The notes beneath the pieces were generated by a model that did no database searches, had not been told where the DNA came from, and saw only the letters and a program-made list of their open reading frames with translations. A DNA stretch of 64,000 bases from Euryarchaeota archaeon UBA182. GTDB taxonomy: Archaea; Thermoplasmatota; Poseidoniia; Poseidoniales; Thalassarchaeaceae. The position numbers and the translations under genes are program-made. Position 1 is the stretch's first letter. Each line of letters opens with the position of its first letter. This document shows positions 1 to 54,203 of this stretch, in pieces. Location of the stretch: NCBI GenBank assembly GCA_002495675.1, contig DAGH01000021.1, positions 8,318 through 72,317 of the forward strand. Direction: 5' to 3'.

Positions 1-3000
1 CGCTATTTTCATGGTCACTTGCACTGGGTGGGATCTTCCTCTCTTGGATTGCCGACATGCCTCTCGCTGAATCAGTTTGGTGGTCAGTAGAAGCCCAACC
101 TGCCATTTGGGGCGCATTGATCGTACTCCCTGTAGCATCAATGGCCAAAAGGTTCCATTCCCCCTTGGCGGGCATTGCTGCTGCTTGGCTCATCGCATTC
201 ATGCCGGGCCACATTACACACTCAACTTTTGGCCTCGCAGACCACGACTCATTCGCTATGTTCTTCCTGACACTTGGCTTCTATTGGTGGGTTAGGTCGA
301 TGTTGGACATCAAACAAGAGAGGCTCTTCTCAAGAACCTCGTGGAATCCGCTATACATCCTCGCGGGAATAAGGGTAATGTGGCGCAATCATCGAACAAC
401 CATGATACACTCAACCCTAGCAGGAATATCGTTCGCGACTGCTGGTCTTGCATGGAAGGGTTATGTCTACGCCCCTGGAATCCTCTTCCTTGGATATTCA
501 GGCATCGTTTTCTTGAACCTATTCAGGGGTAGGGACACCTTACCAATCACCGCTACAATGCTCCAGATGCTGTTTGCTGCGATCCTAATTCCCCTGCCAT
601 TCTACATTTGGCCGGGTATGAACCTATTGACAAACCCAAGTGGCATGGCCCCCCTCCTGTACATGCTTGGATTCACGCTTGGCCTCGGCTACGTTATTTC
701 TGCCTCTCGGGACAAGCCATGGCTCATGGTCTTTACAACTACTGCGACGTTGTCCCTCTTCGTACTTGGTGGCCTGTATATCCTTCAGACCCTTGACTTG
801 TATGCAGGATGGGACATACTGGTCACTGGTGGGTTTTACTTCTCCAAGAACAAGGTTTTCTCAACAATAGGGGAAGCTCAGGCACCCGACAGAGGAATCC
901 TGTTTGCCTCATTCGGTCCTATCGTCACCATTGCCGCTATCGGATACGGCCTCATTCTGATATGGAGGGGGGGAAGGAAGGAGAACCTAGCCTCATTTAC
1001 ATTGGGAACATGGATCGTAGTTGCATCTTACATGTCATGGACCGCAGGGCGTTTCATATTCAATGCAGGACCGCCGATGGCCGTAGTTGGCGGCGTGGGT
1101 CTAACTGCAATGTGGGCGTACGCGAACCCCGCAGAATTCGTAAAACACTGGAAGAAAACCGGAATCGGATCGCCAAGGGCCAGATTCAACAGCACATTCT
1201 CTGCGAGCAGGTCCAGACCAGGGGTTCCTGCGGCTCTTATGGTCCTCCTCATCGTCTTCTCCCAACACGCGACCTACGGCATCGACTCAGGAATACCCAG
1301 GGGAGACTCATCAGCGGGAGATGTCGATCAGGCAATTCAAGGGATCATGCCCGACGTGCTCCGATACGAAGTTCTGGGTTTTTCGGTATTGAACTCCAAC
1401 CAATACTCCCCTGACGATCGTTGCTCCAGTGGCTGCTGGTATCTGGGAACCTTCGGCCCAGGTTTCAATGGGGGGGGATGGAATATGGCATATGAGTGGC
1501 TATCCGAACAGGATGCCGAATCATCCTTCACTGAACGGCCTGCTTTCCTTTCATGGTGGGACTACGGGTTCCAAGCCTTGTCTCATGGACAGCATCCCAC
1601 CGTCGCAGACAACTTCCAATCCGGGATACCCATATCAGGAAACATCCTACTTAGTTCGGGGCAGGCGGATGTGCTCTCCCTGCTGGCAATGAACGCACTA
1701 AGAATGGGCGGTGTTTCAGATGCTGACAACAGAGCCGTCCTGGAACAATACTTCGAGGAGAACCAGATCCGGGAGCTGGAGCGAATTCACAGTATGTCCT
1801 CCGAAGACGTCGAGGCTCGTGCACTTGCTTTGGTTCACGAGGATGATGAGGTACAACTGGTCAAGGGAGCTTTCCTAGCCAAATCAGGTTTGCCATCGAA
1901 GTATGGCTGGTACGTCATCGATGGAGGGGAGATAGTTCAAGACCGCATTGACGACTCTAGTGAGGCGATGAAGCTTTACAACACAACCAGATCATCCTCC
2001 AGCTACTTCTCTGAGAGCCCCACGCACTATATCATTGGCGAGTACAGATACACTTCAGACCTCATAGAGGACTACAATGACCTATCCACGGGAATCCACA
2101 GGAACAACGCCAAGTTGGCAGTTGGCCGAGCATTCATAACCCATGTTTTGGATCTCGATCAAATCGTAGGTTTGGTCTCCGATCTCAGTGAGATACAACA
2201 TGATGTACAAACCTTTGAGGGAAGATTGGGGGAAACAGCCCAAAGGAACTCTGATGTCAGATATTTCGCAATTGACGACAGACTCTACCCCTTGGGCGGG
2301 TTGTTTTACGAGGGCTACAATTATCACGGCGGCCAAACCACTGGTATTTTCTACGCTCCAACGACACTGGCGGGCCTTGATCCAGAAGACTACATCTCCA
2401 GCAGTTACCTCACCAGAAGGGGGGATGGCCCCATAATCCCAAGAACAGCTGGCGAATATGAGCAAGAATATCTGGATGACATAGTCCGGCAACAATCAGG
2501 CGCCATAACAGATCAAAGCCAGATAATTAGCCTTGAAGACATCGACTACATCCAGCAACCCGAATTCTTCGAAACTTTCCTGGCCAGAATATACGTAGGG
2601 TATGGCACTACGTCTCTGGGATTAGACCCCGATAACACCGGACAACCTGGGCCCACATGGGCTAAATCCGGAACGCCCACGACCCCCCTAAGGAACGCTT
2701 ATGCCCTCCCGGGCGCCATGATGAACCACTTTGTTCTTGCAAATTACCACGACGACGGATCCGACTACACGGACTCGGACTCCGATGGTACACCTGACAT
2801 ATACAATTGGAGCGACCCGAGCGAAGAACCAAGCGGCTACTACAACGCCATAGGCATCGCCAACTCCAATGTTAAGATACTCAAGTACTACAGTGGTGCA
2901 ACATTGAATGGGCAAGTGACGCTAGAAACTGGTGAACCCGTCCCCAATGCTAAGATTCTGATTGAGAGAGACGCCTTCAGTTATGAAGAAGGTACCGACA

Positions 3001-6000
3001 CAGACCCAAGGACCTACTGGATACCCATTGGCTCAGAAACAACCGATGATGAAGGTCACTTCACCTCTACGATTCCCTCTGGGAAAATACGAGTCAGCGC
3101 CTTCTACGGAGCAGTGGATGAAACAGGGCCAAGATCCCAAATCGAATCGGGTGCTTTTGACATGCTTTCCGACATAACCAGAGAGCAGCTTGATGGGGAA
3201 GATCGCACCATCAATCCCATCACAGCTATTTTGGGTGGAGTAGCTGGAACAACATACCTCGGAGCCGAGGTCTTGATGGTAACAGGAGAGGAAGGACACA
3301 GTAACGGGGCCTCAGTACTGACAGTCGACGTCAGGGTACCTGCAGTCACCTCGACGGGGCAGGTCCAATGGACTGGTGACGAATCCTTTTCTGGCAACCC
3401 AATACAGGATGCCACAGTAATTCTTACACCATCAGATCCTGATGCCACCCACCAAGGATATGCAGTCCCAACGTCTTCGGGCTCAATAGAGGGTCAGGGC
3501 CTTTACTTCGCAGGCGAGGGTACCGCAATCTTCGACGGCTCAGGCCAATTTGACTCATCGAGCCCGGCCAAAGCAGAGGAATTCACAGGAAGGTTGAGTC
3601 AGACTATTAGAAACAACCAGTCAGTCATCGGCACTGGAACTTTCGTTGGAAACGGGATACTCACAGGCACACTCTCTGATGGCTCCCTGCCATCAACTTG
3701 TGACGCCAATGACACAATGCCAGACAACATGGAAGTCTGCACGTCTCAGAACGGAGAGATAATTGTCTCTGGTTCAGTCAATGCAACGGGAAGATTCGTA
3801 TCAGCAGGCCAATCGGAATTTATCCGAGACTATGAGAATGCGTCTTTCACTGCCGCAGGCAGATTCGTGGTAGAGGAAGGTAACTCTGGGACCATAACAG
3901 GCGACGGAGTATTCCAAGGCGACGGAGTATTCAGCGGGCTAATGGTTAGGGAGGGTACTTTCCATATCTCCAATGCCATACCTGGGGAATACAGCGTACG
4001 AATCGTGATGGATACCGGTCAGGAAATTCAGGTTGATGAGAAATTCCAAATTCTCAGAACCCCCTCAGCAGAAACAAGACTCGTGCAAGTGGAGGGCCTA
4101 TCCGTCAACGCCCTCCTGTCGCAGGAGGATGGATCTCAAACCACGGGGAATGTGATACTAACGGACACCGAATTGCAAGGAGACTCTGCGGCACAGCCAT
4201 GTTCTGACAGACTGACATCTCCATGTTCAATACCCATCGGGGAGGGTGGAGCAATCTCAATCGGACCAATACCAGCCAGATCGCACACGATATCTTATGA
4301 CTCTGATTTGGATGGCTTCTACGACCTAGTAGCAAGCGTGTTGCCAGAGGATGCCACTACAGGATCCATAGATCTAGATCTCATTGTCCCGTTGACTTCG
4401 GACCTTGAGATCACCCTATTGTCTGAGTCGGGTGTTATTGTTCCTGACCTAGACCTGACGATCAGAGGCGCAACAGGACTAGGGATCTACGAGATGAACT
4501 ACGATTCTGAGACGGAGACCTACAAAGCGGAGTTGATACCTGGTGAATATCATCTGAACTACACCTATGGAGACACACAGATCTGGGAGTTGATAACCCT
4601 CGACGAGGACCTATCCATGACCGCCCAGTTCAGGACAAGCTCTCTACTTACTGGAACCGTCTACACATCAGATGATGACAGTACCCCGGAGCCGGATGAC
4701 TACGTCCAATTTGCCGAAGTTGTGGCCAGATGGTCCGGCTTCGAGATTTCTACGGTTGCAGATGGCGAGGGGAATTTTGAGTTCACACTTCCGGTGGGCG
4801 AGAATGTCACACTCACATCTACCGTCGGATTGGGTAATCTTGTCGATGGGTTGGTCGTGTTTACATCCGAGGAAAACGGCCCAATCGATCTAGTCACGAG
4901 AAAAGGAGTTGTCTACGAGGGCTTTGTTTCAGTTAACCGCGGTGACTACCTGTACGACAGTTCCATCGTGGGGTGGGAGCCACTGAGAGTTATCGCAACC
5001 AACACAACATCTGATGTAACCTGGACCTCTGATGTAAATGAAGTCGGCAACTTCGAGATTGCCCTTCCAAGCGGGGAATGGGATATCTCATTGTTGGAAA
5101 GTGCCTTTGAACACACCACAACAACAACCGAACCAGACACTACGATCGAATTAACCATATTCCCCGACAACAGCACGCTGAATCTATTCGCATTCATCGA
5201 CTCTTCCAGGGACGGTAATGCCACGAACGGCACAGGGGTTATTGCCGATTTCAGAGTCGTGCCCCTAGGTCAAAGTGGAATCCAAGAGAACTTTACCACT
5301 CTGGCCACAGGAATCGCCAGTGTGCAACTCGAGCCAGGAAATTACTTGATCGAAACCAGCATACTCAACCCTGGTGAGACACTTCATGGGACTAGGATCC
5401 TCACGGGTTCCACTAACATTCAGATCCCTCTTGAGGCAACAACGTTGCACAGAGATATTGGATTCGACCCTGAGGGCGTCGTGAATATTACATTCATAGA
5501 TCAACTACTTGCCCCGGTTGCCGATCTGGAGGTTAAGTTCAGAAATGTTGACCGAGAGCCTGTAATCGTCACATCTCTATCAACCGATGACGACGGCAAC
5601 ATACTCGCATTACTGCCCGAGGGGAGAACTATAATCGAGATAGATGGTTATGAGCCAGGTGATGAAACTGTCTTAGGCGCGAGGTCGACAATTGACGTGA
5701 TCGCTGGCGACCAATCATCACCGATAATGGTTGAACTAACGGAGATGGCCACGTTGAATCTCACAATTTCGGACTCTGAAACCTCTGACGGAATCCCAGA
5801 CCAGAAAATTATCCTACAATCGTTGGATGGGCTTGGAACAATCAAGATGCCCGCAACAAGTGAAACTGGATTCACATCGACATTGCTCGTACCCGGTAAT
5901 TGGAGCGTAAGCCATGACGCGGAGACCAGCGGTGTTAGAATTCTGGTTCAAGAAACCCACATAGACCGAATTCTAGCAGGTGAACATCGAGATGTCCTCC

Positions 6001-8120
6001 TAGATGCTCGCAAGGAAGTCACACTCTCCGGAAAGGTCTTCTGGGATTTCGACAAAGATGACCAGGCTGATGTTGCAGAGGGCGTTTCCAATGCTAGTGT
6101 GACACTTGAATACGGCCAAACCGTTATCGAGCTGAAAACCGATGAAACAGGAACATACTCCACCTTGGTCCCATCGAATACTTCCCTGAGCATCACAGTT
6201 TCCAAGGATGGATTTGCGACCATGCAGGACAACTCTTCAATCCATGGAGAGCCAATTGACCTAGACATCGAGCTAACTGCAGGCACAGTCACAGCCTCGG
6301 GCACTGTAACATACCTAGGCCAATCGATAGATTCTCTGTGGTCTGATGATGTCGAAATTCTCCTAGTCCCCAGAGAGGGCTTTGCTATGCCACAAGTAAC
6401 CGCCGAAAAGGGTGGGGACAGTGAATGGGACGGAACTTGGACTGTTGACCTTGAACCTGGAAGATATGTGCTTCAGGTTCGAGACACAACCAGGAACTTA
6501 GTTGCCTTTACCCAAATATTCGCCGATCTAGTGAATGGCGGACAAGCTGACGTAGATCTTGTGCCAGGGGGTTGGCTCCTGATGAATGGTTCATGGCTCG
6601 ACTACGAGGGTACCCTGCATTCAATCTCAACAGAAGACAGGGACATAGAGGGATCAGACATTATAGATGAGGAATTAACACTCCTGATAGAATCCGGGCC
6701 GTCATTGGATTGGAGACTCGCGGTACCCAATGACGGGGACCTTAGAATCCTCTTACCATCTGGGCCACTAACGATCTCTGGAGACTTCGCAGTAGAACAA
6801 CAGGACAGGACAATGACATACGAGGCAGGCCAGTCCATTAGTATCCCATCGTCAACGATTTCAGACGCGTTTGAGACCGCGCCGTTAGACCTCAGGTTCA
6901 ACAGAATATCCAACAGCGAAATCTCAGCATTATTGGCCTCCACATCATCTGCCACTGTTAACGAGGACGGCATCCTGTTCGCCAATAGCGACGGAGAGGG
7001 CGGCTACGACCCCATGTTCTTGGATATCGAAGTTGACTATGAAGGACATGAGACATCCGATGTGTTCAATCTAAGGGCTACAGTCCCGGGAACTGATGGA
7101 TCTGATTGGACTGTTTTGTTTGACAATGGATCAGGGGAATATTCAGTCTCACCGACACTCTTGATGTCCATCGAAGACGATCAAAAGACGGTCAAAGTGC
7201 AGATAACACCTCCCAATTCTACAGTGGCACGCCATTTCTCAAATGGAAGAACCGTGACAGTCCAGATATTCTCAGACAATGGCGTCAATGAAGATGTTGA
7301 GGTGAAAGTCAACGTCCCAAAAACAACTGGTTGGAGCCTCGCACAGGCCCCTGATGACATCTACGCTGTCAGGCCTGGTTCTCAGGAGACCATCCAACTC
7401 ACTTTCCAAAATGACGGCAACTCGGATGAGGTCTACTCAGTCTCATTCGATGACGATGCATTGCCCCCGGGTTGGACGAGAACTGGGGCCCAATCCGTGA
7501 CCATTGGAGCATTTGAGAGTCAAGCATTCTCAGTCATTCTTGGTGCACCGGAGAACGCGACTGTTGATCCATACAAACTCACCATGTACGTAATAGGCAA
7601 TGACCAAACGGAATACGACCCCGTGGAAATTGACGTATCCGCCCAGTATGCCATCCTGTCCATTGACAGGGATAGTGTCTCATGGTTAGGTGGTGGTAAG
7701 GATCCCGTTTACGGATCAGTCCAGACGGTAGTTCTAACGATCGAAAATCAAGGTCTCGTCGGGGCAGAGGAAGTAATCGTTAGGGCGGACCACCAGACAT
7801 CCGCACTATCAGACCCCTCTGGCATCAACGCCAGCGCTGTTCTTTCAGTACCTGCGGGAATGGAAGGCACGGCTTATTTGGATCTAAATTTCACCACCCT
7901 GACACAAGGTGATGCTTGGATAGTATTCTCCATTGAGTCAGTAGATGGAAAAGAGTCTTCAGAGGAGCCATACACCAAAAAATACAATCTACAGTCTCCA
8001 AGCGTCGAAGAGGCAGGGGATGCGACTCAGGTATTGATGATAGTACTCATTATCATACTCGGGGGCCTGTTGATCGTCCTTACAAGAAGGCCAGGTAGGA
8101 AACCCAAAGCTCCTTTCTAA
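1..8120 (+). CDS. aglB: Oligosaccharyltransferase AglB/STT3 catalytic module fused to a ~1,800-aa array of Ig-like/carboxypeptidase-regulatory-like beta-sandwich and CARDB-like domains, ending in a TM anchor (5' end probably outside the window)
   Basis: ORF track gives 57..8120 (2687 aa). The same frame has no stop back to nt 3, so the N-terminus is likely cut by the window edge. The first ~450 aa are multi-pass hydrophobic, with a GLADHDSF acidic loop. The hallmark STT3/AglB WWDYG motif is present (LSWWDYGFQ, nt 1554-1568), followed by TVADNFQSG. From about aa 950 there are repeated units of the form G.V...G.P..nA.V......TD..G.F....P.G.Y (e.g. NAKILIERD...TDDEGHFTSTIPSGKIRVSA; GKVFWDFD...TDETGTYSTLVPSNTSLSITV). 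The C-terminus has CARDB-like segments and then VLMIVLIIILGGLLIVL plus a basic RRPGRKPK tail. Confidence 0.8.
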   Translation, partial: LFSWSLALGGIFLSWIADMPLAESVWWSVEAQPAIWGALIVLPVASMAKRFHSPLAGIAAAWLIAFMPGHITHSTFGLADHDSFAMFFLTLGFYWWVRSMLDIKQERLFSRTSWNPLYILAGIRVMWRNHRTTMIHSTLAGISFATAGLAWKGYVYAPGILFLGYSGIVFLNLFRGRDTLPITATMLQMLFAAILIPLPFYIWPGMNLLTNPSGMAPLLYMLGFTLGLGYVISASRDKPWLMVFTTTATLSLFVLGGLYILQTLDLYAGWDILVTGGFYFSKNKVFSTIGEAQAPDRGILFASFGPIVTIAAIGYGLILIWRGGRKENLASFTLGTWIVVASYMSWTAGRFIFNAGPPMAVVGGVGLTAMWAYANPAEFVKHWKKTGIGSPRARFNSTFSASRSRPGVPAALMVLLIVFSQHATYGIDSGIPRGDSSAGDVDQAIQGIMPDVLRYEVLGFSVLNSNQYSPDDRCSSGCWYLGTFGPGFNGGGWNMAYEWLSEQDAESSFTERPAFLSWWDYGFQALSHGQHPTVADNFQSGIPISGNILLSSGQADVLSLLAMNALRMGGVSDADNRAVLEQYFEENQIRELERIHSMSSEDVEARALALVHEDDEVQLVKGAFLAKSGLPSKYGWYVIDGGEIVQDRIDDSSEAMKLYNTTRSSSSYFSESPTHYIIGEYRYTSDLIEDYNDLSTGIHRNNAKLAVGRAFITHVLDLDQIVGLVSDLSEIQHDVQTFEGRLGETAQRNSDVRYFAIDDRLYPLGGLFYEGYNYHGGQTTGIFYAPTTLAGLDPEDYISSSYLTRRGDGPIIPRTAGEYEQEYLDDIVRQQSGAITDQSQIISLEDIDYIQQPEFFETFLARIYVGYGTTSLGLDPDNTGQPGPTWAKSGTPTTPLRNAYALPGAMMNHFVLANYHDDGSDYTDSDSDGTPDIYNWSDPSEEPSGYYNAIGIANSNVKILKYYSGATLNGQVTLETGEPVPNAKILIERDAFSYEEGTDTDPRTYWIPIGSETTDDEGHFTSTIPSGKIRVSAFYGAVDETGPRSQIESGAFDMLSDITREQLDGEDRTINPITAILGGVAGTTYLGAEVLMVTGEEGHSNGASVLTVDVRVPAVTSTGQVQWTGDESFSGNPIQDATVILTPSDPDATHQGYAVPTSSGSIEGQGLYFAGEGTAIFDGSGQFDSSSPAKAEEFTGRLSQTIRNNQSVIGTGTFVGNGILTGTLSDGSLPSTCDANDTMPDNMEVCTSQNGEIIVSGSVNATGRFVSAGQSEFIRDYENASFTAAGRFVVEEGNSGTITGDGVFQGDGVFSGLMVREGTFHISNAIPGEYSVRIVMDTGQEIQVDEKFQILRTPSAETRLVQVEGLSVNALLSQEDGSQTTGNVILTDTELQGDSAAQPCSDRLTSPCSIPIGEGGAISIGPIPARSHTISYDSDLDGFYDLVASVLPEDATTGSIDLDLIVPLTSDLEITLLSESGVIVPDLDLTIRGATGLGIYEMNYDSETETYKAELIPGEYHLNYTYGDTQIWELITLDEDLSMTAQFRTSSLLTGTVYTSDDDSTPEPDDYVQFAEVVARWSGFEISTVADGEGNFEFTLPVGENVTLTSTVGLGNLVDGLVVFTSEENGPIDLVTRKGVVYEGFVSVNRGDYLYDSSIVGWEPLRVIATNTTSDVTWTSDVNEVGNFEIALPSGEWDISLLESAFEHTTTTTEPDTTIELTIFPDNSTLNLFAFIDSSRDGNATNGTGVIADFRVVPLGQSGIQENFTTLATGIASVQLEPGNYLIETSILNPGETLHGTRILTGSTNIQIPLEATTLHRDIGFDPEGVVNITFIDQLLAPVADLEVKFRNVDREPVIVTSLSTDDDGNILALLPEGRTIIEIDGYEPGDETVLGARSTIDVIAGDQSSPIMVELTEMATLNLTISDSETSDGIPDQKIILQSLDGLGTIKMPATSETGFTSTLLVPGNWSVSHDAETSGVRILVQETHIDRILAGEHRDVLLDARKEVTLSGKVFWDFDKDDQADVAEGVSNASVTLEYGQTVIELKTDETGTYSTLVPSNTSLSITVSKDGFATMQDNSSIHGEPIDLDIELTAGTVTASGTVTYLGQSIDSLWSDDVEILLVPREGFAMPQVTAEKGGDSEWDGTWTVDLEPGRYVLQVRDTTRNLVAFTQIFADLVNGGQADVDLVPGGWLLMNGSWLDYEGTLHSISTEDRDIEGSDIIDEELTLLIESGPSLDWRLAVPNDGDLRILLPSGPLTISGDFAVEQQDRTMTYEAGQSISIPSSTISDAFETAPLDLRFNRISNSEISALLASTSSATVNEDGILFANSDGEGGYDPMFLDIEVDYEGHETSDVFNLRATVPGTDGSDWTVLFDNGSGEYSVSPTLLMSIEDDQKTVKVQITPPNSTVARHFSNGRTVTVQIFSDNGVNEDVEVKVNVPKTTGWSLAQAPDDIYAVRPGSQETIQLTFQNDGNSDEVYSVSFDDDALPPGWTRTGAQSVTIGAFESQAFSVILGAPENATVDPYKLTMYVIGNDQTEYDPVEIDVSAQYAILSIDRDSVSWLGGGKDPVYGSVQTVVLTIENQGLVGAEEVIVRADHQTSALSDPSGINASAVLSVPAGMEGTAYLDLNFTTLTQGDAWIVFSIESVDGKESSEEPYTKKYNLQSPSVEEAGDATQVLMIVLIIILGGLLIVLTRRPGRKPKAPF

Positions 8121-8140
8121 CCGAGAATGGGTGACTAACA

Positions 8141-9373
8141 ATGCCCAAAGACGGCGTAGAGTTAATGCCTGAGCCCGAGGATAGGGCGATTCTCACCGCG
8201 GTCGACAGGGGTGCCGAGGGATACACTGGGGAAGATTACGGGCTTTCCGACAAAGAAGCGAGAGACCTGAGAAGGCCAATGTACACCATGGTACCATTCG
8301 TATGGCCATACGGAGCAGTCGGTGGAGCTGCCAGCATCGTCGTAATGATGTTGCTATGGCCGATGATTCAGCCACTCATCACGCCATACCTCCCCGCCTC
8401 CGAGTGGGCCTACGAGTCATCTGGTGTGCGACTGCTCGGCGACGAAGGTCTAGATGGCAGTGGGGTTAAGGTCTGCATTGTCGATACAGGTATAGATCCC
8501 TTTCACCCTGATTTTAGAAACATGAACTTAGATGGATTCAGGGACTTCTACGCCTTTCAGCATGAGGAGGTGAGGGATGTAAGCCAATCCCACCATGGGA
8601 CTTCAATGGCAGGTCTGCTTATCGCTAATGGCTCAGGACCCTTGCAAGGAATGGCTCCTAAGGTGACACTCAGCGTGGCCGTCGGATTGGGCCCTGAGGG
8701 AACTACCGGAAACAGCGTCAGGGTCGCTGATGCGATACAATGGTGTAGGATTTCTCAGCGATCCGATATAATCAGCCTATCACTAGGTGGGCCATTCGAA
8801 GCCTCATCCCAACAAGCCTCTAGGTCTGTCTCAGGTGCTGTTCAAGATGCCTTGGATAGTGGGATTTTTGTTGTAGCGGCGGCGGGGAATGCGGGACCAA
8901 ATAATATTGATGTCTCGACACCCGCAAATGTGGAAGGCGTCATAAGCGTCGGTGCATATGATAGGTTCCTTACGCCTTGGTCAAACAGTTCGATCGGCTC
9001 AAACTTAGATCCCTATAACCAGTTGGACAGAGTCTGGCCAAATCAGAAACCCGAGATACTTGCACCAGGCTCGTATATCCTCTCCACCGTATCCAGCCAG
9101 AAATCCCCCCCATATGCATATTCAACTGGTACAAGCGACGCAGCAATCTTCGTCACTGCAACATTGGCATTGATTTTGCAGGATCTGACTGAAAAGGGCC
9201 TCATAGACCTCACGATTGAGGGGGATGATCGTATATTCCATGTCAAGAAGGCCCTTGCGGAGAGTGCCCGACCAATTAAAAACCAGATGGGGCATGATAT
9301 TCGATCGGGGTATGGCATGCTAGATGCAGTGGCATGGCGGGACGCAGTGGAGGCCTCTGCTTACAATTGGTGA
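8141..9373 (+). CDS. Membrane-anchored subtilisin-like serine protease (peptidase family S8)
   Basis: 410 aa. Catalytic motifs occur in the canonical D-H-S order: VCIVDTGID, SHHGTSMAGL, STGTSDAA. There is one N-terminal TM helix (GAVGGAASIVVMMLLWPMI). A Shine-Dalgarno-like GGGTGA lies at 8129-8134, and the start is only 20 nt after the aglB-fusion stop. Confidence 0.9.
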   Translation: MPKDGVELMPEPEDRAILTAVDRGAEGYTGEDYGLSDKEARDLRRPMYTMVPFVWPYGAVGGAASIVVMMLLWPMIQPLITPYLPASEWAYESSGVRLLGDEGLDGSGVKVCIVDTGIDPFHPDFRNMNLDGFRDFYAFQHEEVRDVSQSHHGTSMAGLLIANGSGPLQGMAPKVTLSVAVGLGPEGTTGNSVRVADAIQWCRISQRSDIISLSLGGPFEASSQQASRSVSGAVQDALDSGIFVVAAAGNAGPNNIDVSTPANVEGVISVGAYDRFLTPWSNSSIGSNLDPYNQLDRVWPNQKPEILAPGSYILSTVSSQKSPPYAYSTGTSDAAIFVTATLALILQDLTEKGLIDLTIEGDDRIFHVKKALAESARPIKNQMGHDIRSGYGMLDAVAWRDAVEASAYNW

Positions 9374-9422
9374 CGCCCATATTCCGCCTAGGGTTATATC
9401 TATTGACGGCCCCAGTAGAACC

Positions 9423-12400
9423 ATGAGCGACCGACCCGCGATGAAGAGCAAAGCATTGGTACTCATCCTGATACTCTCGACGATGGCCGCTCTGGTGGCA
9501 CCGGCTTCCACCGTATCTGCTCAGAATACTACTAGCTCAGGCTACATCGACTCAATCGAGACATGGTCTGGGACACATACTGTTAGTGGAGACATAATCA
9601 TATCACCGGGTGCCAAGCTAATTATCGAGCCCTCAACTCAAATCACCTTCTCAAATGGTACATCGTTGGAGGCACGTGGGAACCTATGCGTCGGCGCGGC
9701 ATCCTGCGGCGCCTCTCAAGATGCAACTTCTTCCAGTCGCATAACAATGACATGGCTCGAGCCGTCAAACGCCTCTGCAAAGGGCGATTGCAGGGGTATG
9801 ACCTTTGGAACATCCACGCTCAGCATAGACGACCCCTCTTGTGGCGAAGGTATCGTCATCCGCAGTACAATAGACCTCTCAGAGACTGCTCTACGTCAAC
9901 TGGATATAGACTCAGCATGGGGCGTGCCGTTTCCAGTCCCGACTGTGAATCAATTTCGATATGGTGCTTTGGTATTGCAAGGAGCATCCCCCGAATTAGT
10001 CGAATTGGAGTTCACTGATACGAACACATCCAGCGTACTTGCGACAGAATTGGCCCAACCTAGGTTCGTCGGGGGTCTTTACACCGTTGGAAATGACCAG
10101 CAGAGCGGCGTGACAGGAAACGCTGTACAGATATATGGAGGAGGTACAGGGAGTATCCCTATCCTCTTTGAGAATTCAGATTTTGTTTCAACCGAAAGGG
10201 GATGTCGAAATCAGGACAACGGTCGATCCGCTGTATGGGTCGAGGAGTCATTTGCAGAGTTCGTCAACATTAATGTCATCAGTGGGGATTTTGGATTGAG
10301 TTACAGATCCTCTGCTGGAAAAGTTTCCAACTCATCATTGAGTGTAAATTGCAATGGTGTGGACATCAACGGCATGATTACGGTGGGGGCCAAAGAATAT
10401 CCAACCAATATTTCAAACAATATCATCTCCACTGTTGAAGGAACCCCGATAACCGCTTACGCAGGGTCACTGGCTGAGATCCATAACAACGACTTGAGCG
10501 GAGCATCGGGAGGATCTGGCATCGCCGTTCAATCAAGCCGAGCGATAATCCACGGCAATAACATAGGCCCCATAGGTGGTTGGAACGGACTGTGGCTCAT
10601 CGGTTCCTTCGATGTCGATGCCCAGAATAATACGATCAGTGACATAGCTAGGGAGCCCGTGATCGCAGGAGATTACTGGGCTGGAGACAACCCTGACGTC
10701 AGGAGGCTTTACTTCGCAAACAACCAGGTTTCAACCCCCGGTACTGGCAGCTGCCAAAGCAACACACATTGGGGCGGGGAGTTTACTTGCCCAGTAGTCA
10801 TGGTTCACAGGGCTGGGGCAACACTGGTGGACAACGTTTTCACAGCAGGAGGCACGGCGGATGGTATCAGGGCAACTGGGGCCCTTCTGAATGTCCAAAG
10901 GAATACTTGGAACCTGAACGCAGCTGGAGCCGTAATACAAAATTTTGACACTGGGGCTGCTGGAGCCCAACAATATGGATCATTAGCCTTCTTCACCGAT
11001 AATCAGTGGAATGGAGTCACGAGCACCTACGATGTGACGAAATCCTCGGTCACAGTACAATCTGAAACTATCCCGAATGCGGCGGATGGTGAAGTACCAG
11101 TTAGACTTGCTTGGGATGACCAAGAGGCATGGCCAGGGGTAGTCGACAATGACAATGACGGAATCCCCGATGGTGATTGGGACACAAATATCGTGCCACA
11201 TCAGACGAAAAGCTGCGCTATATGCCCAGACTACACCCCTCGCGATTTTCCCCTGGCATTGAACATGGACAACAATTCCACAGTCTTCACATTCTCGAAC
11301 GTATTGAATCTGAATCTATCGAAAATCCAAATAGCGACGCAGCCGACGTTTTACTCCGTTCAAGTTAAGCGGGCCGAAATGGTAAGGTTCCAAGCGATAG
11401 CCAAAGGTTCAGCGGTTCCAGGTGCGAATATCCTGATCGAAGACGGCGTCGGTAACGATCTTTACTCCCTCGAGACTCTCGACGATGGCCGCACACCATG
11501 GATCGCGCTTCCATCAAATTCACACTTAGACTTCAGGGGGCTTCAGGGTGGTGACAATCCAGATGGCTTCGCAGATGACGAGTACGAGGACTCTTGCTCA
11601 GATGGGGTAGACAACGACGGCGATCTACTTTATGATACGCAAGATGACTCATGTGACTATTCAATTGGCTCCCGAGAAATGTCGAAATATTTCGTCACTG
11701 GGTACAAATTTGGTTCAGGATACTATCATTATGACTTCCTGCTTCAGGAGTCAACATACGAGGGTACGGTGGTCCTGGAGAACGACGCACCCTCAATTGG
11801 CGTCGATGAGTCAAGCGATACCTCATTCAAGAGAACTGTCACAATCACAGGTTCAGCATGGGATGGGGAATGGATAGGAGTCTACCCGTCCGCAGAGGAG
11901 TCCATGTGGGCTCAGAAGGGATACGTTCACAGAGTTGAGGTCAAGGACCCATTCACTGGCTCTTGGGATGACGCTGGAGTAGCTACCGATACCTCTGGAA
12001 TGGCTGCTGGAGAAGTCACGGGGACAAATCATCCATTCAGAACATGGGAGTACTCTTTGGACATGTCCTCATACCCTGAGGATGACTACGTCTTCGAGAT
12101 ACGATCATTCGACGGACTCGACTACAGTGAAATCATTACCAAGACAGTCAAACTCAACACACAACCCCCATTGGTCTCCATTTCAGAACCAGCAGATTCG
12201 ACCACCCACAGGAATGATGACAAGAAAATAATATTCTCTGGGACAGCAAACGATGACTATGGATGCCCAACTAATTGCGGCGCTGACATACAGGACGTAT
12301 TTTTCGTTATCGAGGGATCGGAATATTACAGCGATACGCCTGCTGACGCCACTTGGTCCGGGGATACTTGGACCTATGAGTGGAGCTACGCTGCACTTCC

Positions 12401-13670
12401 TAGAATCTCGGACGATTACACTTTCACCATATGGGCTTCTGACTCAGATTTCTGCGTAGGAGTCGTGGGAGAGTGTAATCCTGTAACTTTAACGCTGACA
12501 ATTGACAACGAGAACCGAAACCCACTGATACAGTTGTCCCAGCCCGTAGATGGAACGTACGTAGAGGCATCAGAGAACACAGTGATATCGGGAGTGGCTC
12601 AGGATCCCGATGGCTTAGTGAATAGAATAGACATCGAGATTCGAGACCCAATTGATAGTATCGTCATCGACACAATCACCCTCACAGGCTCAGAAATCGA
12701 TGGTAATTACTGGTCCACCCAATGGGACTCTGGGAACTTACAACATGATCGACCATACACTATCTTCGCTCGTAGCTTTGATGGCATAGGGTACTCACAA
12801 TGGGACCAAATAGAGTTCATTGCGGACAACCCGCCAAACAAAGACAACAATCGGCCAGTATTCGACAACACAGATTGGAAACAGGAGTTTACCCTATATT
12901 GCGATGCTGAGAACCTGGACCTCCTGGATCGGTGTACATTCGCCACAATCAACCTCAATGACCATTTTTCAGACCCCGATGTTGACCAGGACATTATCCT
13001 TGCAGTTGTCGATGACCAACATGCCATCGGCATTAGGATAGACTCCTCAGGAATCGCTACCTATGATCCTGATGTGATGGCCTTCTACACTACGGATATG
13101 TCAGAGTGGACCATGGAGAATGTTGTGTTTATCGCACAAGACGTCTTTGGTTCAAAGGTCCAGTCCGACCCGGTAGACTTCATCGTAATCCCAACAGTAT
13201 TTTCTGTCAATGCCCCGGACCAAACATCTCTTGGATCGGGTGATAAAGGAATATTATTCGACGGAACTGGCATTCCGGGTAGGGCCGTCACTGCGTACAT
13301 CGATTCCAATCCCGCTAATTCGACGGTAGTCAAAGATGACAGCACATGGGAACTCCTCATACCATCCAATAGGATAATCGGAGCCGTGACTCCCCAATTT
13401 ACGATGGGCGTAGGCACGCCAATCGATGGCTCGACGATATCAGATGGTTCAGGTGATGGTGATGGGCTCCCGCTGGGATTGATTGGAGGACTAGTCTTGT
13501 TGATTGCAATTCTAGTTGCCACTGGCGCGAGATTTATCGAGTTTGGTGAAGAAGAGGGGATCCAGGATGACGATCAGACTGAAGGTCAGAGGTATGTCAA
13601 AGACCCAGACAACCCGGGATGGCTGTGGGATGTAGAGGCTGGAGAATGGGTCATTGAGGGCAAAAATTGA
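9423..13670 (+). CDS. Giant secreted, C-terminally anchored surface protein with right-handed parallel beta-helix (PbH1/NosD-like) repeats and Ig/cadherin-like domains
   Basis: ORF track gives 9324..13670. I place the start at ATG 9423 because MSDRPAMKSKALVLILILSTMAALVAPASTVSAQ reads as a signal peptide and this removes the overlap with the S8 gene. Recurrent NISNNIIS, IHNNDLSG, IHGNNIGP, AQNNTISD and FANNQVS turns are typical of PbH1 repeats. DNDNDGIPDGD and CSDGVDNDGDLLYDTQDDSC are Ca-binding-like motifs. The C-terminal TM LIGGLVLLIAILVATG is followed by a ~45-aa acidic tail. The protein has many N-x-S/T sequons. Confidence 0.75.
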   Translation: MSDRPAMKSKALVLILILSTMAALVAPASTVSAQNTTSSGYIDSIETWSGTHTVSGDIIISPGAKLIIEPSTQITFSNGTSLEARGNLCVGAASCGASQDATSSSRITMTWLEPSNASAKGDCRGMTFGTSTLSIDDPSCGEGIVIRSTIDLSETALRQLDIDSAWGVPFPVPTVNQFRYGALVLQGASPELVELEFTDTNTSSVLATELAQPRFVGGLYTVGNDQQSGVTGNAVQIYGGGTGSIPILFENSDFVSTERGCRNQDNGRSAVWVEESFAEFVNINVISGDFGLSYRSSAGKVSNSSLSVNCNGVDINGMITVGAKEYPTNISNNIISTVEGTPITAYAGSLAEIHNNDLSGASGGSGIAVQSSRAIIHGNNIGPIGGWNGLWLIGSFDVDAQNNTISDIAREPVIAGDYWAGDNPDVRRLYFANNQVSTPGTGSCQSNTHWGGEFTCPVVMVHRAGATLVDNVFTAGGTADGIRATGALLNVQRNTWNLNAAGAVIQNFDTGAAGAQQYGSLAFFTDNQWNGVTSTYDVTKSSVTVQSETIPNAADGEVPVRLAWDDQEAWPGVVDNDNDGIPDGDWDTNIVPHQTKSCAICPDYTPRDFPLALNMDNNSTVFTFSNVLNLNLSKIQIATQPTFYSVQVKRAEMVRFQAIAKGSAVPGANILIEDGVGNDLYSLETLDDGRTPWIALPSNSHLDFRGLQGGDNPDGFADDEYEDSCSDGVDNDGDLLYDTQDDSCDYSIGSREMSKYFVTGYKFGSGYYHYDFLLQESTYEGTVVLENDAPSIGVDESSDTSFKRTVTITGSAWDGEWIGVYPSAEESMWAQKGYVHRVEVKDPFTGSWDDAGVATDTSGMAAGEVTGTNHPFRTWEYSLDMSSYPEDDYVFEIRSFDGLDYSEIITKTVKLNTQPPLVSISEPADSTTHRNDDKKIIFSGTANDDYGCPTNCGADIQDVFFVIEGSEYYSDTPADATWSGDTWTYEWSYAALPRISDDYTFTIWASDSDFCVGVVGECNPVTLTLTIDNENRNPLIQLSQPVDGTYVEASENTVISGVAQDPDGLVNRIDIEIRDPIDSIVIDTITLTGSEIDGNYWSTQWDSGNLQHDRPYTIFARSFDGIGYSQWDQIEFIADNPPNKDNNRPVFDNTDWKQEFTLYCDAENLDLLDRCTFATINLNDHFSDPDVDQDIILAVVDDQHAIGIRIDSSGIATYDPDVMAFYTTDMSEWTMENVVFIAQDVFGSKVQSDPVDFIVIPTVFSVNAPDQTSLGSGDKGILFDGTGIPGRAVTAYIDSNPANSTVVKDDSTWELLIPSNRIIGAVTPQFTMGVGTPIDGSTISDGSGDGDGLPLGLIGGLVLLIAILVATGARFIEFGEEEGIQDDDQTEGQRYVKDPDNPGWLWDVEAGEWVIEGKN

Positions 13671-16260: not shown

Positions 16261-17169
16261 TCAGTGATCTATCGAAATTCTCCTGCTGGCATTTTCTCCT
16301 ATTCTGTGTGTAAATTCAGGACCTATCTTCCCGGAGATTGATAGGTCACCATCGAAGGAATCGTGAATTTTCATCAAGGCTTCGCTTTCTGCTATGTGAG
16401 GGGCGTTGTTTTTCTCAGAAAGGTGGCAGAGCACAATAGATTTCGTTGATGCAGTGACTACATCTCGCAGGATGTTTGCGGTTTGGAGATTGGACAAGTG
16501 GCCACCACGCCCAGAAATCCTTCTTTTCAGTGAGTCGGGGTAAGGGCCGTTGAGAAGCCTATTATGATCATAATTTGCCTCTATGGAGATATGGGAACAT
16601 CCCATTAGATGCTTCTTCAACTCATCTGTGGCTTCACCCAAATCAGTGACGTAAGCAGCCCTTTCCCCTCCGGTGAAAATAATGAAAGCAACATTGTCTG
16701 CGTCATCGTGGGGCACTGGAATCGGCATGACGCTAACGTTATGATTGATCTCAATTCGATCTAGATCCGAAAAGGTTCGGACCTCCGACATAGGCTGCCA
16801 ACCCAACCTAATCGCGGTTTCCAAGTTAGAATGTAATCTTGCACCCCATTTTTTCGAAGATTTCAATGCGGATTTAGAGTGATCTGCATGATGATGAGTG
16901 ATGAGGATATGGTCAACCTGGCTCGGATTTATTCCTGCTAAAAAAAGCCTTTTTTCCATCTGCCTTGTTGATAGCCCGCAATCTATCAAAAATACCGTGT
17001 CCTCGTTTTTGTACACCACTGAATTGCCTGAGCTACCAGAGCCTAGGTGTGTAATCTCGAGGGGCACAACACCAGCGTGCGTAAGTCGATCAATGAATGA
17101 ATCTGTCCTAGGATTGCGAGCATAGGCATTGCCAGAATTATGGCCGTCGTACGAACACCGCTCCATCAT
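16261..17169 (-). CDS. Metallo-beta-lactamase-fold hydrolase (YycJ/PhnP-like)
   Basis: ORF track gives 16261..17226. The MBL signature ILITHHHADHSK (HxHxDH) is present, along with N-terminal THLGSGSSGNS, FLIDCG, and C-terminal GGHLSN. The start is uncertain; I chose the internal MMERCSY methionine to limit overlap with the divergent gene. Confidence 0.75.
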   Translation of the reverse strand: MMERCSYDGHNSGNAYARNPRTDSFIDRLTHAGVVPLEITHLGSGSSGNSVVYKNEDTVFLIDCGLSTRQMEKRLFLAGINPSQVDHILITHHHADHSKSALKSSKKWGARLHSNLETAIRLGWQPMSEVRTFSDLDRIEINHNVSVMPIPVPHDDADNVAFIIFTGGERAAYVTDLGEATDELKKHLMGCSHISIEANYDHNRLLNGPYPDSLKRRISGRGGHLSNLQTANILRDVVTASTKSIVLCHLSEKNNAPHIAESEALMKIHDSFDGDLSISGKIGPEFTHRIGENASRRISIDH

Positions 17170-17211
17170 GGTGATATATGGTCTGAGAATCAACGGAGGG
17201 CGGGGACCCAC

Positions 17212-43322: not shown

Positions 43323-43379
43323 GATCGCACGCCCATTGGTGGTGAAGGGTCAAAAGTCAGATTGACAGCGGATCGATCC

Positions 43380-51244: not shown

Positions 51245-54136
<2,892 letters not shown>

Positions 54137-54154
54137 TTATACATCCTAGCCAGA

Positions 54155-54186
54155 GGTGGGCCTCTGTCCAATAGGCTTCTCGATTC
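54155..54186 (+). other. 3' strand of the pre-23S rRNA processing helix (BHB motif partner)
   Basis: This strand reads ggtggg-cctct-gtcc-[aat bulge 54170-72]-aggcttctcgattc and pairs with 51187-51219. The two 3-nt bulges lie on opposite strands and are separated by a 4-bp helix. Confidence 0.8.
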
Positions 54187-54203
54187 ATCAAATTCGAAAA
54201 TGC

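What the first reader, a model, noticed from the sequence alone, without database searches (positions are those of the whole stretch)
1..8120. AglB oligosaccharyltransferase fused to ~1,800 residues of extracellular beta-sandwich repeats and a second C-terminal membrane anchor
The N-terminal third has the STT3/AglB hallmarks: a multi-pass membrane domain, an acidic DHD loop, and WWDYG at nt 1554-1568. Characterised AglB/STT3 proteins are roughly 600-1,000 aa. Here a single uninterrupted frame continues for about 1,800 more residues. These comprise carboxypeptidase-regulatory-like and CARDB-like repeats, then a TM helix with a basic tail. The catalytic C-terminal domain of STT3 faces outward, so the whole extension should be extracellular and tethered at both ends. 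That would place the N-glycosylation enzyme within a giant cell-surface scaffold. I do not know of a described OST with this architecture.
Basis: partly seen in the sequence, partly recalled or inferred. Interest (0 to 1): 0.8.

Follow-up and report, generated by a model that had tools for sequence, protein, structure and literature searches.

The report
Giant double-anchored archaeal N-glycosylation enzyme
This gene is real. It is the standard N-glycosylation enzyme (AglB) of the abundant ocean archaea Poseidoniales, a protein of about 3,100 residues in which the enzyme is fused to a long, probably sugar-coated stalk of Ig-like domains that is anchored back into the membrane; the form is common in sequence databases, but I found no paper that describes or explains it.

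Summary
One frame is open from nt 3 to the stop at 8118-8120. It encodes an STT3/AglB oligosaccharyltransferase: Pfam STT3 above cut-off, DHD, TIGE and WWDYG present, and the best solved-structure match is A. fulgidus AglB-L. About 1,700 residues of all-beta sandwich domains follow, then one TM helix and a basic tail.

Two corrections. The gene is cut by the window edge. Full-length orthologs are 3,124-3,338 aa, with about 340 extra polytopic N-terminal residues plus TM1 and the first catalytic Asp upstream of the window. The architecture is also not a one-off. It is conserved end to end in hundreds of Poseidoniales (marine group II) genomes, with dN/dS about 0.1 in the extension. Shorter giant relatives (2,100-2,800 aa) occur in other Thermoplasmata. 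Databases label these proteins "STT3 domain-containing"; I found no paper on them.

The extension carries twice the expected N-X-S/T sequons in 59 of 59 orthologs. A membrane-anchored subtilase follows the gene in 48 of 48 loci.

Best reading: an active AglB with a built-in, self-glycosylated, doubly anchored surface scaffold. Main rival: a precursor cleaved into enzyme plus surface glycoprotein. Verdict: a new variant of a known kind, of moderate interest.

The parts
1..8120 (+). 5'-truncated CDS of the giant AglB. Codons are read from nt 3 and the stop is at 8118-8120. It corresponds to residues 420-3124 of full-length ortholog P0001.
   Evidence: gapless alignment, 90.7% identity
3..1235 (+). 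STT3 polytopic membrane domain, from about TM2 to the last TM (window aa 1-411)
   Evidence: Pfam STT3 and TIGR04154; alignment to 3WAJ; hydropathy
240..248 (+). DHD, the second acidic (DxD-type) catalytic motif. It aligns with D161/H163 of A. fulgidus AglB-L and is invariant in 59 orthologs.
864..875 (+). TIGE, the TIXE motif of external loop 5; invariant
   Evidence: Assigning it as the TIXE motif rests on established STT3/AglB/PglB knowledge.
1236..2852 (+). Extracellular catalytic module (aa 412-950). It contains WWDYG, an inserted alpha/beta domain of about 170 aa (aa ~555-735), the conserved block VRYFAIDDRLYPLGG...TGIFYAP (nt 2256-2360) where the DK/MI motif is expected, and a variable acidic linker (aa ~915-955).
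1554..1568 (+). WWDYG catalytic motif; the only WWDxG in the 64-kb window
2853..8021 (+). Extracellular array of about 16-20 beta-sandwich domains (aa 951-2673). It is acidic (D+E 15.8%), has 23 N-X-S/T sequons, and shows dN/dS of about 0.09-0.10.
2901..3107 (+). First CarboxypepD_reg-like domain, directly after the enzyme module. It is also conserved in the shorter Thermoplasmata AglBs.
4299..4319 (+). Invariant DxDxDGF loop (DSDLDGF), of the Ca2+-binding type. The four Cys in the extension (aa 1233/1246 and 1400/1408) are also invariant.
   Evidence: The calcium-binding role is an inference.
6078..6275 (+). Best-scoring CarboxypepD_reg domain (aa 2026-2091)
7371..7586 (+). NEW3/NPCBM_assoc (CARDB-like) domain (aa 2457-2528). 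The C-terminal region is homologous to the CARDB-containing tail of the non-Poseidoniales giants.
8022..8081 (+). C-terminal transmembrane anchor
8082..8117 (+). Basic cytoplasmic tail TRRPGRKPKAPF. The last three residues are invariant, and the tail occurs only on this protein among 846 neighbouring ORFs.
8141..9373 (+). Membrane-anchored S8 subtilase with an N-terminal signal-anchor. It lies immediately downstream on the same strand in 48 of 48 Poseidoniales loci and may be a partner.

Best explanation
This is the conserved, probably housekeeping, AglB oligosaccharyltransferase of a marine group II archaeon (Poseidoniales).

The STT3 module transfers lipid-linked glycans to Asn in N-X-S/T sequons on the outer face of the membrane, as in other archaea.

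Attached to it in one polypeptide is an acidic, sequon-rich chain of about 16-20 Ig-like/transthyretin-like beta-sandwich domains, roughly 1,700 residues long. It projects from the cell surface and is tied back into the membrane by a C-terminal TM helix with a conserved basic cytoplasmic tail.

I propose that the extension is glycosylated by its own catalytic domain. I also propose that it acts as a built-in non-catalytic 'subunit': a fixed-length glycoprotein arch or spacer in the cell envelope or glycocalyx that places the enzyme within the surface layer, and that it does not change the chemistry.

Shown: the enzyme identity, the conservation, the domain type and the sequon enrichment. Inferred: the topology, the self-glycosylation and the scaffold/spacer role.
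For: - Catalytic identity. Pfam STT3 is above cut-off. A family profile hits AglB-L 3WAJ at 6e-14, AglB-S C-terminal domains and eukaryotic STT3. GGSDPWY, DHD, TIGE and WWDYG are all invariant in 59 orthologs.
- Lineage-wide single form. There are 484 clusters at 90% identity, and the top 120 are almost all 3,120-3,340 aa with about 100% coverage. At least 592 matching stretches occur in GTDB species genomes; the best 80 are all Poseidoniales and give 79 distinct loci on separate contigs. Synteny CarS-PurD-aglB-S8 is conserved.
- Selection. dN/dS is 0.04 for the enzyme, 0.09-0.10 for the extension and 0.05 for the TM and tail. Invariant residues occur along the whole length. Length stays within 3,124-3,338 aa at about 39% identity.
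- Extension structure. CarboxypepD_reg and NEW3 are detected. AlphaFold2 gives all-beta domains at pLDDT 70-90. Foldseek's best matches are stalk arrays of surface adhesins and pilins, alpha2-macroglobulin and a haloarchaeal S-layer protein.
- Surface glycoprotein character. Sequons number 36.8 observed against 17.5 expected in the extension, higher in 59 of 59 orthologs, with no enrichment in the enzyme module (6.1 against 5.3). D+E is 15.8%, and the only Cys are two invariant pairs.
- Old architecture. Thermoplasmata giants of 2,165-2,775 aa share the first CarboxypepD_reg domain, the C-terminal CARDB-like region (hhalign probability 98%) and a C-terminal TM with a basic tail.
Against: - No experiment or proteomic datum shows that the full-length protein exists, that it is glycosylated, or where it sits.
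- The scaffold/spacer role is an inference from anatomy.
- The AlphaFold2 model of the enzyme module was poor (pLDDT 50), so the GT-C fold and a DK/MI motif could not be verified.
- I could not test whether these genomes also hold a second, standard-length aglB.
- An oligosaccharyltransferase is usually a low-abundance enzyme, which fits poorly with a bulk envelope component.
- The conserved adjacent protease leaves processing open.
Confidence: 0.6

Rival explanations
1. Polyprotein precursor. The polypeptide is cleaved after translocation, for example at the variable acidic junction, by the co-encoded membrane-anchored subtilase or by another protease. This would yield a normal-sized AglB plus a separate, C-terminally anchored surface (S-layer-like or glycocalyx) glycoprotein that is glycosylated in cis while it is made.
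For: - An S8 subtilase with an N-terminal signal-anchor lies 23-404 nt downstream on the same strand in 48 of 48 loci.
- The junction between enzyme and extension is an acidic linker prone to insertions and deletions, with inserts of 70-90 aa in some orthologs.
- Non-Poseidoniales relatives end in Heimdall-CTERM, Loki-CTERM or PGF-CTERM-like sorting signals, which are typical of archaeal surface glycoproteins.
- Foldseek lists the H. volcanii S-layer protein 7PTP.
- Sequons are enriched in the extension.
Against: - The whole neighbourhood is syntenic (CarS, PurD, a large surface protein and a STAND NTPase are also conserved), so adjacency alone is weak evidence.
- I did not identify any conserved cleavage motif.
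- The first CarboxypepD_reg domain after the junction is the best conserved part of the extension and is also present in 1,100-1,200-aa AglBs that have no anchor.
- The window's own C-terminus matches no sorting-signal model.
Confidence: 0.2
2. Adhesin or ligand-binding module. The extension binds particles, algal polysaccharides or other cells, and the enzyme merely serves as its membrane anchor.
For: - The best structural matches are stalks of Gram-positive adhesins and pilins (TIE, PitA, Cna B, SdrD).
- NEW3/CARDB domains accompany glycosidases and surface proteins.
- The window encodes other giant secreted proteins.
Against: - Both ends are membrane-anchored.
- No recognisable ligand-binding head domain was found: there is no sequence match of the extension in the PDB and only stalk-type folds appear.
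- Length and domain order are fixed across the order, unlike fast-evolving adhesins.
- All catalytic residues are strictly conserved.
Confidence: 0.12
3. Catalytically dead STT3-like anchor (pseudo-enzyme), with a separate standard AglB doing the N-glycosylation.
For: - The score against the curated subfamily model TIGR04154 is far below its cut-off (106 against 450 bits).
- No canonical DxxK or MxxI motif is recognisable.
- I could not exclude a second aglB elsewhere in the genome.
Against: - GGSDPWY, DHD, TIGE and WWDYG are invariant in 59 orthologs, and dN/dS is 0.04 in the enzyme module.
- The genome scan gave 79 distinct loci on separate contigs among the best 80.
- An 'oligosaccharyltransferase' is among the genes differentially transcribed in situ in MGIIb (PMC9723583).
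Confidence: 0.04
4. Assembly chimera or missed frameshift joining an oligosaccharyltransferase gene to a surface-protein gene.
For: None. The only fragmented copy seen is on an error-rich long-read contig (L084).
Against: - The same uninterrupted architecture occurs on hundreds of independent contigs from many studies.
- The window aligns to P0001 without gaps.
- Composition is uniform along the gene.
- Purifying selection acts across the junction.
Confidence: 0.01

Closest known systems
Archaeal AglB, long type (A. fulgidus AglB-L, PDB 3WAJ/3WAK, 868 aa; P. furiosus AglB, 967 aa)
   Same: It has an STT3 membrane domain. The EL1 Asp (GGSDPWY against GGNDPWY), the DxD/DxH motif, TIXE and WWDYG are present. 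The catalytic domain faces outward and is followed by beta-rich peripheral domains. It is the best sequence and structure match.
   Different: - It is 3-4 times longer.
- It has an extra polytopic N-terminal domain of about 340 aa.
- It has an insert of about 170 aa after WWDYG.
- It has about 1,700 aa of additional beta-sandwich domains.
- It has a second membrane anchor with a conserved basic tail.
- It has no canonical DK motif.
- It scores below the TIGR04154 cut-off.
Eukaryotic OST complex (STT3 with ribophorin I/OST1, ribophorin II/SWP1 and OST48/WBP1)
   Same: Functional analogy only. A catalytic STT3 is accompanied by lumenal or extracellular beta-rich domains, each tied to the membrane by a C-terminal TM helix with a short basic cytosolic tail. 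This comparison rests on my own knowledge.
   Different: Here everything is one polypeptide. I detected no sequence or profile similarity to ribophorins or OST48, and the domain number is far larger. Whether the C-terminal helix packs against the STT3 domain could not be tested.
NOMO (BOS complex subunit of the ER multipass translocon)
   Same: A chain of transthyretin/CarboxypepD_reg-like beta sandwiches ends in one TM helix and a short tail. Pfam NOMO-domain models give hits in the relatives (NOMO_5th E=3e-10 in P0188; listed as faint).
   Different: The hit in the window protein itself is insignificant (E=0.18). The similarity is at clan level. NOMO is not fused to an enzyme.
Archaeal surface glycoproteins with PGF-CTERM-type sorting signals (e.g. 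the Haloferax volcanii S-layer glycoprotein)
   Same: Acidic, sequon-rich Ig-like domain arrays on the cell surface with a C-terminal TM and basic signal. Relatives of this protein match the Heimdall-CTERM, Loki-CTERM and PGF-CTERM models. 7PTP is among the Foldseek hits.
   Different: The window's C-terminus matches none of these models. The array is covalently joined to the enzyme. There is no evidence of lattice formation.
CnaB/SdrD-type stalks of Gram-positive adhesins and pilins (B. anthracis TIE 6FWV, PitA, Cna B repeats)
   Same: These are the best structural matches of the extension (E down to 1e-13): tandem beta-sandwich stalks.
   Different: There is no sortase signal, no adhesive head domain and no sequence similarity. 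The protein is archaeal and anchored at both ends.

Membership tests
STT3/AglB/PglB oligosaccharyltransferase (GT-C, CAZy GT66) | Match to the STT3 family profile above the curated threshold | tested here: met
   Pfam PF02516 scores 43.7 bits for the window and 50.5 bits for P0001, against a cut-off of 24.5. A family profile hits 3WAJ at 6e-14.
STT3/AglB/PglB oligosaccharyltransferase (GT-C, CAZy GT66) | First acidic residue in external loop 1 (D47 of AfAglB-L) | tested here: met
   GGSDPWYMKR aligns to GGNDPWYYYR of 3WAJ, and D383 is invariant. The residue lies upstream of the window, so this was shown in orthologs (91% identity), not in the window DNA.
STT3/AglB/PglB oligosaccharyltransferase (GT-C, CAZy GT66) | Second acidic DxD/DxH/DxE motif | tested here: met
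   DHD at nt 240-248 aligns with D161/H163 of 3WAJ and is invariant.
STT3/AglB/PglB oligosaccharyltransferase (GT-C, CAZy GT66) | TIXE (or SVSE) motif in external loop 5 | tested here: met
   TIGE at nt 864-875; T, I, G and E are invariant in 59 orthologs.
STT3/AglB/PglB oligosaccharyltransferase (GT-C, CAZy GT66) | WWDYG motif in the outward-facing domain | tested here: met
   nt 1554-1568; invariant; aligned to the WWDYG of 3WAJ, 3VU0 and 3VGP.
STT3/AglB/PglB oligosaccharyltransferase (GT-C, CAZy GT66) | DK (DxxK) or MI (MxxI) motif forming the Ser/Thr pocket | tested here: inconclusive
   The expected position holds a conserved block YFA[IV]DxRL[YF]P...TGIF[YH]AP (nt 2256-2360) with no canonical DxxK or MxxI. 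Without a reliable model it cannot be assigned.
STT3/AglB/PglB oligosaccharyltransferase (GT-C, CAZy GT66) | 13-TM GT-C fold | tested here: inconclusive
   The AlphaFold2 model was poor (pLDDT 50, pTM 0.35). Foldseek still ranks 3WAK, human STT3A and yeast STT3 first (E 6e-7 to 4e-4), but with TM-scores of about 0.2. Hydropathy is consistent with a polytopic domain.
NCBIfam TIGR04154 archaeo_STT3 (archaeosortase-A-associated subfamily) | Score at or above the curated subfamily cut-off | tested here: not met
   106.4 bits against a cut-off of 450. This is a divergent AglB, not a member of that subfamily as calibrated.
CarboxypepD_reg / transthyretin-like beta sandwich (PF13620) | Profile match above the gathering score | tested here: met
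   64.1 bits against 32.3, with further weaker copies along the extension.
CARDB / NEW3 (NPCBM_assoc) domains | Profile match above the gathering score | tested here: met
   NEW3 PF10633 scores 24.9 bits for the whole protein and 35.3 bits for the sub-sequence, against 24.4. CARDB PF07705 is hit only in relative P0188.
PGF-CTERM / Heimdall-CTERM / Loki-CTERM archaeosortase-type sorting signals | C-terminal motif, TM and basic cluster matching the curated model | tested here: not met
   The window C-terminus gives no hit at E<=1. Thermoplasmata relatives reach the cut-offs (Heimdall-CTERM 24.4-24.6 against 24; Loki-CTERM 25.1 against 19.9).
Eukaryotic OST accessory subunits / NOMO | Detectable homology of the extension to ribophorins, OST48 or NOMO | tested here: not met
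   There is no PDB sequence match for the extension. The NOMO1-like_9th hit is E=0.18 in the window. NOMO models hit only relatives, at clan level.

The most novel reading that the evidence does not exclude
The oligosaccharyltransferase is fused to its own main substrate. The extension would be the principal envelope (S-layer-like or glycocalyx) glycoprotein of Poseidoniales. It would be made as one polypeptide with the enzyme, glycosylated in cis as it emerges, and then either kept as a fixed-length, doubly anchored arch that sets the envelope spacing or released by the co-encoded membrane subtilase. Together with the extra N-terminal membrane domain, this would be a single-chain archaeal counterpart of the multi-subunit eukaryotic OST (catalytic STT3 plus lumenal beta-sandwich subunits with C-terminal TM anchors).
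Probability: 0.2. Interest if true: 0.8.

Novelty: new variant of a known kind. Interest (0 to 1): 0.55.

Why it matters
[quoted passage not shown] They are uncultured, and the one search I ran on their cell envelope found nothing. Their only recognisable N-glycosylation enzyme in this locus is 3-4 times the size of any characterised AglB or STT3. The same overall architecture and a narrow length range hold across the whole order.

If the extension is a self-glycosylated envelope scaffold, it would be a first molecular handle on the MGII cell surface, which bears on virus receptors, particle attachment and cell integrity. It would also show that a single-chain enzyme can carry the kind of membrane-tethered beta-sandwich accessory domains that eukaryotic OST has as separate subunits.

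For annotation, giant 'carboxypeptidase regulatory-like domain' proteins in Thermoplasmata MAGs should be recognised as AglB.

Tried and rejected
- Frame 1 translation of nt 1-8130 is full of stops; the gene is in frame 3.
- AlphaFold2 of the enzyme module with a 15-row alignment failed (pLDDT 50). The fold and DK-motif tests therefore stayed inconclusive.
- phmmer of the extension against PDB sequences found nothing.
- HMMs built from single repeats recover the other repeats only weakly. The domains are too divergent for a clean repeat count, so I give about 16-20 from secondary structure and length.
- The N-terminal extension profile found no standalone homolog. The one apparent 355-aa 'standalone' (P0288) sits on a frameshift-ridden long-read contig.
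- I looked for the C-terminal TM/RRPGRxPxAPF tail on other proteins. It is absent from the other large ORFs of the window and from 846 ORFs in 80 related loci, apart from two fragments that look like pieces of the same gene. It is therefore not a general sorting signal here.
- I tried to name the organisms that carry the 1,100-1,200-aa and 2,100-2,800-aa relatives. I obtained only generic labels such as 'Thermoplasmata' or 'Thermoplasmatota archaeon'.
- I could not determine whether a second, standard-length aglB exists in the same genomes.
- Literature searches found no description of this architecture. Nikolayev et al. 2020, a survey of AglB across Archaea, is not held in the library, so I cannot exclude a mention there.
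Full report
**What is in the sequence**

Frame 3 of the + strand is open from nt 3 to the stop at 8118-8120, which is 2,705 codons. The frame is already open at the window edge, so the gene is 5'-truncated.

The window is archaeal chromosomal DNA. It holds an archaeal 23S rRNA at 51249-54133 and a 5S rRNA at 54207-54327. It also carries housekeeping genes: DnaJ, GluRS/GlnRS-type and PheRS-beta tRNA synthetases, and a CitMHS transporter. GC content is about 45-52% with no break across the gene.

**Is it an oligosaccharyltransferase beyond the WWDYG string?**

Yes.
- Pfam STT3 scores 43.7 bits against a cut-off of 24.5, and TIGR04154 archaeo_STT3 aligns over aa 14-552.
- The full-length ortholog P0001 aligns to A. 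fulgidus AglB-L (PDB 3WAJ) from TM1 onward, with GGSDPWYMKR against GGNDPWYYYR and LADHD against FNDHH.
- A profile of 52 orthologs hits 3WAJ at 6e-14, the AglB-S C-terminal domains 3VU0 and 3VGP at about 1e-7, and eukaryotic STT3 proteins at about 1e-6.
- In the window, DHD is at nt 240-248, TIGE (the EL5 TIXE motif) at 864-875 and WWDYG at 1554-1568. All are invariant in 59 orthologs.
- The score is far below the curated TIGR04154 cut-off (106 against 450 bits). No canonical DK or MI motif is visible. A conserved block YFA[IV]DxRL[YF]P...TGIF[YH]AP occupies that position instead.
- My AlphaFold2 model of the module was poor (pLDDT 50). Foldseek still ranked AglB-L, human STT3A and yeast STT3 first, but with TM-scores of about 0.2, so I count the fold test as inconclusive.

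**The true size**

The closest homolog, P0001, is 90.7% identical and aligns without gaps over all 2,705 residues. It is 3,124 aa long. The missing 419 residues comprise STT3 TM1, the EL1 catalytic Asp, and an extra domain of about 340 aa with 8-10 hydrophobic helices. That extra domain has no Pfam match and no standalone homolog.

**The extension**

An acidic, insertion-prone linker (window aa ~915-955) is followed by about 1,700 residues.
- Pfam finds CarboxypepD_reg (64 bits, several weaker copies) and a NEW3/NPCBM_assoc domain near the end.
- AlphaFold2 models window aa 1310-2090 as about 9-10 consecutive beta sandwiches of 70-90 aa at pLDDT 70-90. The first 360 residues, which include a Gly-rich beta region, are uncertain.
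- Foldseek matches tandem stalk arrays: B. anthracis TIE at 1e-13, SpyCEP, the pilins PitA, SpaD, RrgB and BcpA, Cna B and SdrD repeats, alpha2-macroglobulin, and the H. volcanii S-layer protein 7PTP.
- There is no sequence match in the PDB.
- The extension is acidic (D+E 15.8%, K+R 4.6%). Its only four Cys are two invariant pairs, and it contains an invariant DxDxDGF loop.
- The protein ends in a TM helix (nt 8022-8081) and the tail TRRPGRKPKAPF. The last three residues are invariant.
- This tail is unique to this protein among 846 ORFs in related loci, and it matches no archaeosortase-type sorting model.

**Artefact excluded; the architecture is lineage-wide**

- The protein search returned 484 clusters at 90% identity. 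The top 120 are nearly all 3,120-3,340 aa with about 100% coverage at 38-91% identity. Where sources give a name, it is marine group II/III euryarchaeote, Poseidoniales, 'STT3 domain-containing protein' or 'dolichyl-phosphooligosaccharide-protein glycotransferase'.
- A scan of GTDB species genomes found at least 592 matching stretches. The best 80 are all Poseidoniales (Thalassarchaeaceae, Poseidoniaceae) and give 79 distinct loci on separate contigs.
- Between the window and P0001, dN/dS is 0.04 in the enzyme, 0.09-0.10 in the extension and 0.05 in the TM and tail.
- Between families, the enzyme keeps 57-64% identity and the extension 26-44%. Even so, total length stays within 3,124-3,338 aa.

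**Wider distribution**

An exhaustive search with the enzyme part found the Poseidoniales type and then a large second set of proteins of 2,000-2,775 aa. These share 29-36% identity in the STT3 core and lack the N-terminal extension. There are also forms of 1,100-1,200 aa.

Where named, the second set are 'Thermoplasmata archaeon' MAG proteins, often annotated only as 'carboxypeptidase regulatory-like domain-containing protein'. All 16 long ones I examined end in one TM helix and a basic tail. Several of these C-termini reach the Heimdall-CTERM or Loki-CTERM cut-offs and approach the PGF-CTERM cut-off.

Their first CarboxypepD_reg domain and their C-terminal CARDB-like region are homologous to those of the Poseidoniales protein (hhalign probability 98%). 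The layout enzyme, beta-sandwich array, CARDB-like domains, anchor is therefore old within Thermoplasmata. Poseidoniales added more domains and an N-terminal membrane domain.

**Clues to function**

- N-X-S/T sequons are enriched about two-fold in the extension: 23 in the window against 12.8 +/- 3.1 in shuffles, and a mean of 36.8 against 17.5 across 59 orthologs, higher in 59 of 59. They are not enriched in the enzyme module (6.1 against 5.3). The extension therefore looks like an N-glycoprotein, and its own catalytic domain is the obvious enzyme.
- A 410-aa S8 subtilase with an N-terminal signal-anchor follows the gene at 23-404 nt on the same strand in 48 of 48 loci that have enough downstream sequence. 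The whole neighbourhood (CarS, PurD upstream; a large surface protein and a STAND NTPase downstream) is also syntenic. Adjacency is suggestive, not proof.
- No agl glycosylation gene cluster flanks the gene.
- One paper lists an 'oligosaccharyltransferase' among the genes differentially transcribed in situ by an MGIIb genus, without comment on its size (PMC9723583).

**Most likely mechanism**

The protein is an active AglB working at the outer membrane face. This is shown as far as sequence can show it.

The C-terminal catalytic domain of STT3 enzymes faces outward (established knowledge), and the terminal tail is strongly basic. The extension should therefore be extracellular and tethered at both ends (inference).

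I propose that it is glycosylated in cis and forms a fixed-length, acidic, glycan-covered arch of Ig-like domains. This arch would be a built-in non-catalytic 'subunit' or spacer within the envelope or glycocalyx of these archaea. The conserved tail and the C-terminal helix would contact a cytoplasmic or intramembrane partner, possibly the STT3 bundle itself.

I put about 0.95 on 'genuine, conserved, catalytically competent giant AglB' and about 0.4 on the scaffold/spacer role.

The main rival, at about 0.2, is a polyprotein cleaved at the variable junction, perhaps by the neighbouring subtilase, into enzyme plus a separately anchored surface glycoprotein. Adhesin, pseudo-enzyme and artefact readings are less likely; the last is refuted.

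**Comparison with what is known, and novelty**

It works like, and passes most membership tests for, AglB/STT3. It fails the calibrated TIGR04154 subfamily threshold and lacks a recognisable DK/MI motif.

By analogy only, the membrane-tethered beta-sandwich chain recalls the ribophorins and OST48 of eukaryotic OST, and also NOMO. No homology to the OST subunits was detected, and the NOMO hits are at clan level and mostly in relatives.

None of my eight literature searches found a description of a giant AglB in Poseidoniales or Thermoplasmata. The main survey of AglB diversity, Nikolayev et al. 2020, could not be read.

The object is thus abundant and routinely, if vaguely, annotated in databases, but apparently undescribed. 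I rate it a new variant of a known kind, with interest 0.55.

Noticed in passing
L001:10001-11020 (upstream of window nt 1): Full-length orthologs carry an extra N-terminal domain of about 340 aa with 8-10 hydrophobic helices, placed before STT3 TM1. It is conserved across Poseidoniales, has no Pfam match and no standalone homolog. It is absent from the 2,100-2,800-aa Thermoplasmata giants.
   Followed up: partly
window 8141-9373 (+): An S8 subtilase with an N-terminal signal-anchor helix (aa ~50-80) lies directly downstream of the giant aglB in 48 of 48 Poseidoniales loci. It may be a processing partner. Its ORF overlaps the start of the next ORF (9324).
   Followed up: partly
window 51249-54327 (+): 23S and 5S rRNA genes with no 16S gene and no tRNA anywhere in the 64 kb, which suggests an unlinked rRNA arrangement. 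The ORFs listed at 54156-55049 (+) and 54359-55069 (-) lie at the 3' edge of the rRNA region; the first spans the 5S gene, so it is probably spurious.
   Followed up: no
window 9324-13670, 17140-22956, 43362-48074 (+): Three more very large predicted secreted proteins: 1,448 aa with beta-helix and Big_7; 1,938 aa with bacterial TSP3 repeats; 1,570 aa with an S8 protease and CARDB. None shares the C-terminal TM/RRPGRxPxAPF tail of the AglB.
   Followed up: partly
window 13735-16260 (+): A predicted regulator combining an HTH, a STAND NTPase (AAA_16/NB-ARC) and TPR repeats. It is conserved downstream of the aglB locus in 39 related loci.
   Followed up: no
window 23861-24823 (+): A single ORF combining a pyroglutamyl peptidase (Peptidase_C15, aa 1-169) with a NUDIX domain (aa 191-311), which is an unusual fusion.
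   Followed up: no
window 4299-4319; Cys codons at aa 1233, 1246, 1400, 1408: An invariant DxDxDGF loop (calcium-binding type) and two invariant Cys pairs, which are the only cysteines in the 1,700-aa extension.
   Followed up: no
window ~2745-2865 (aa ~915-955); orthologs P0095, P0105, P0112: The junction between the enzyme module and the first beta sandwich is an acidic linker. In one Poseidoniales subgroup it carries a Ser/Thr-rich insertion of 70-90 aa. It is a candidate flexible hinge or cleavage site.
   Followed up: partly
P0143, P0154, P0211, P0238 (C-termini); L082/L083: Giant AglBs of other Thermoplasmata end in signals matching the Heimdall-CTERM, Loki-CTERM or PGF-CTERM models. This implies archaeosortase-type processing of an oligosaccharyltransferase's own C-terminus. 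Others have a conserved 'NWRP' juxtamembrane motif.
   Followed up: partly
L084:8589-20666: On a long-read, pilon-polished contig, the same locus (PurD, aglB, S8) is broken into many small ORFs by frameshifts. This assembly-quality artefact could be mistaken for split genes.
   Followed up: yes
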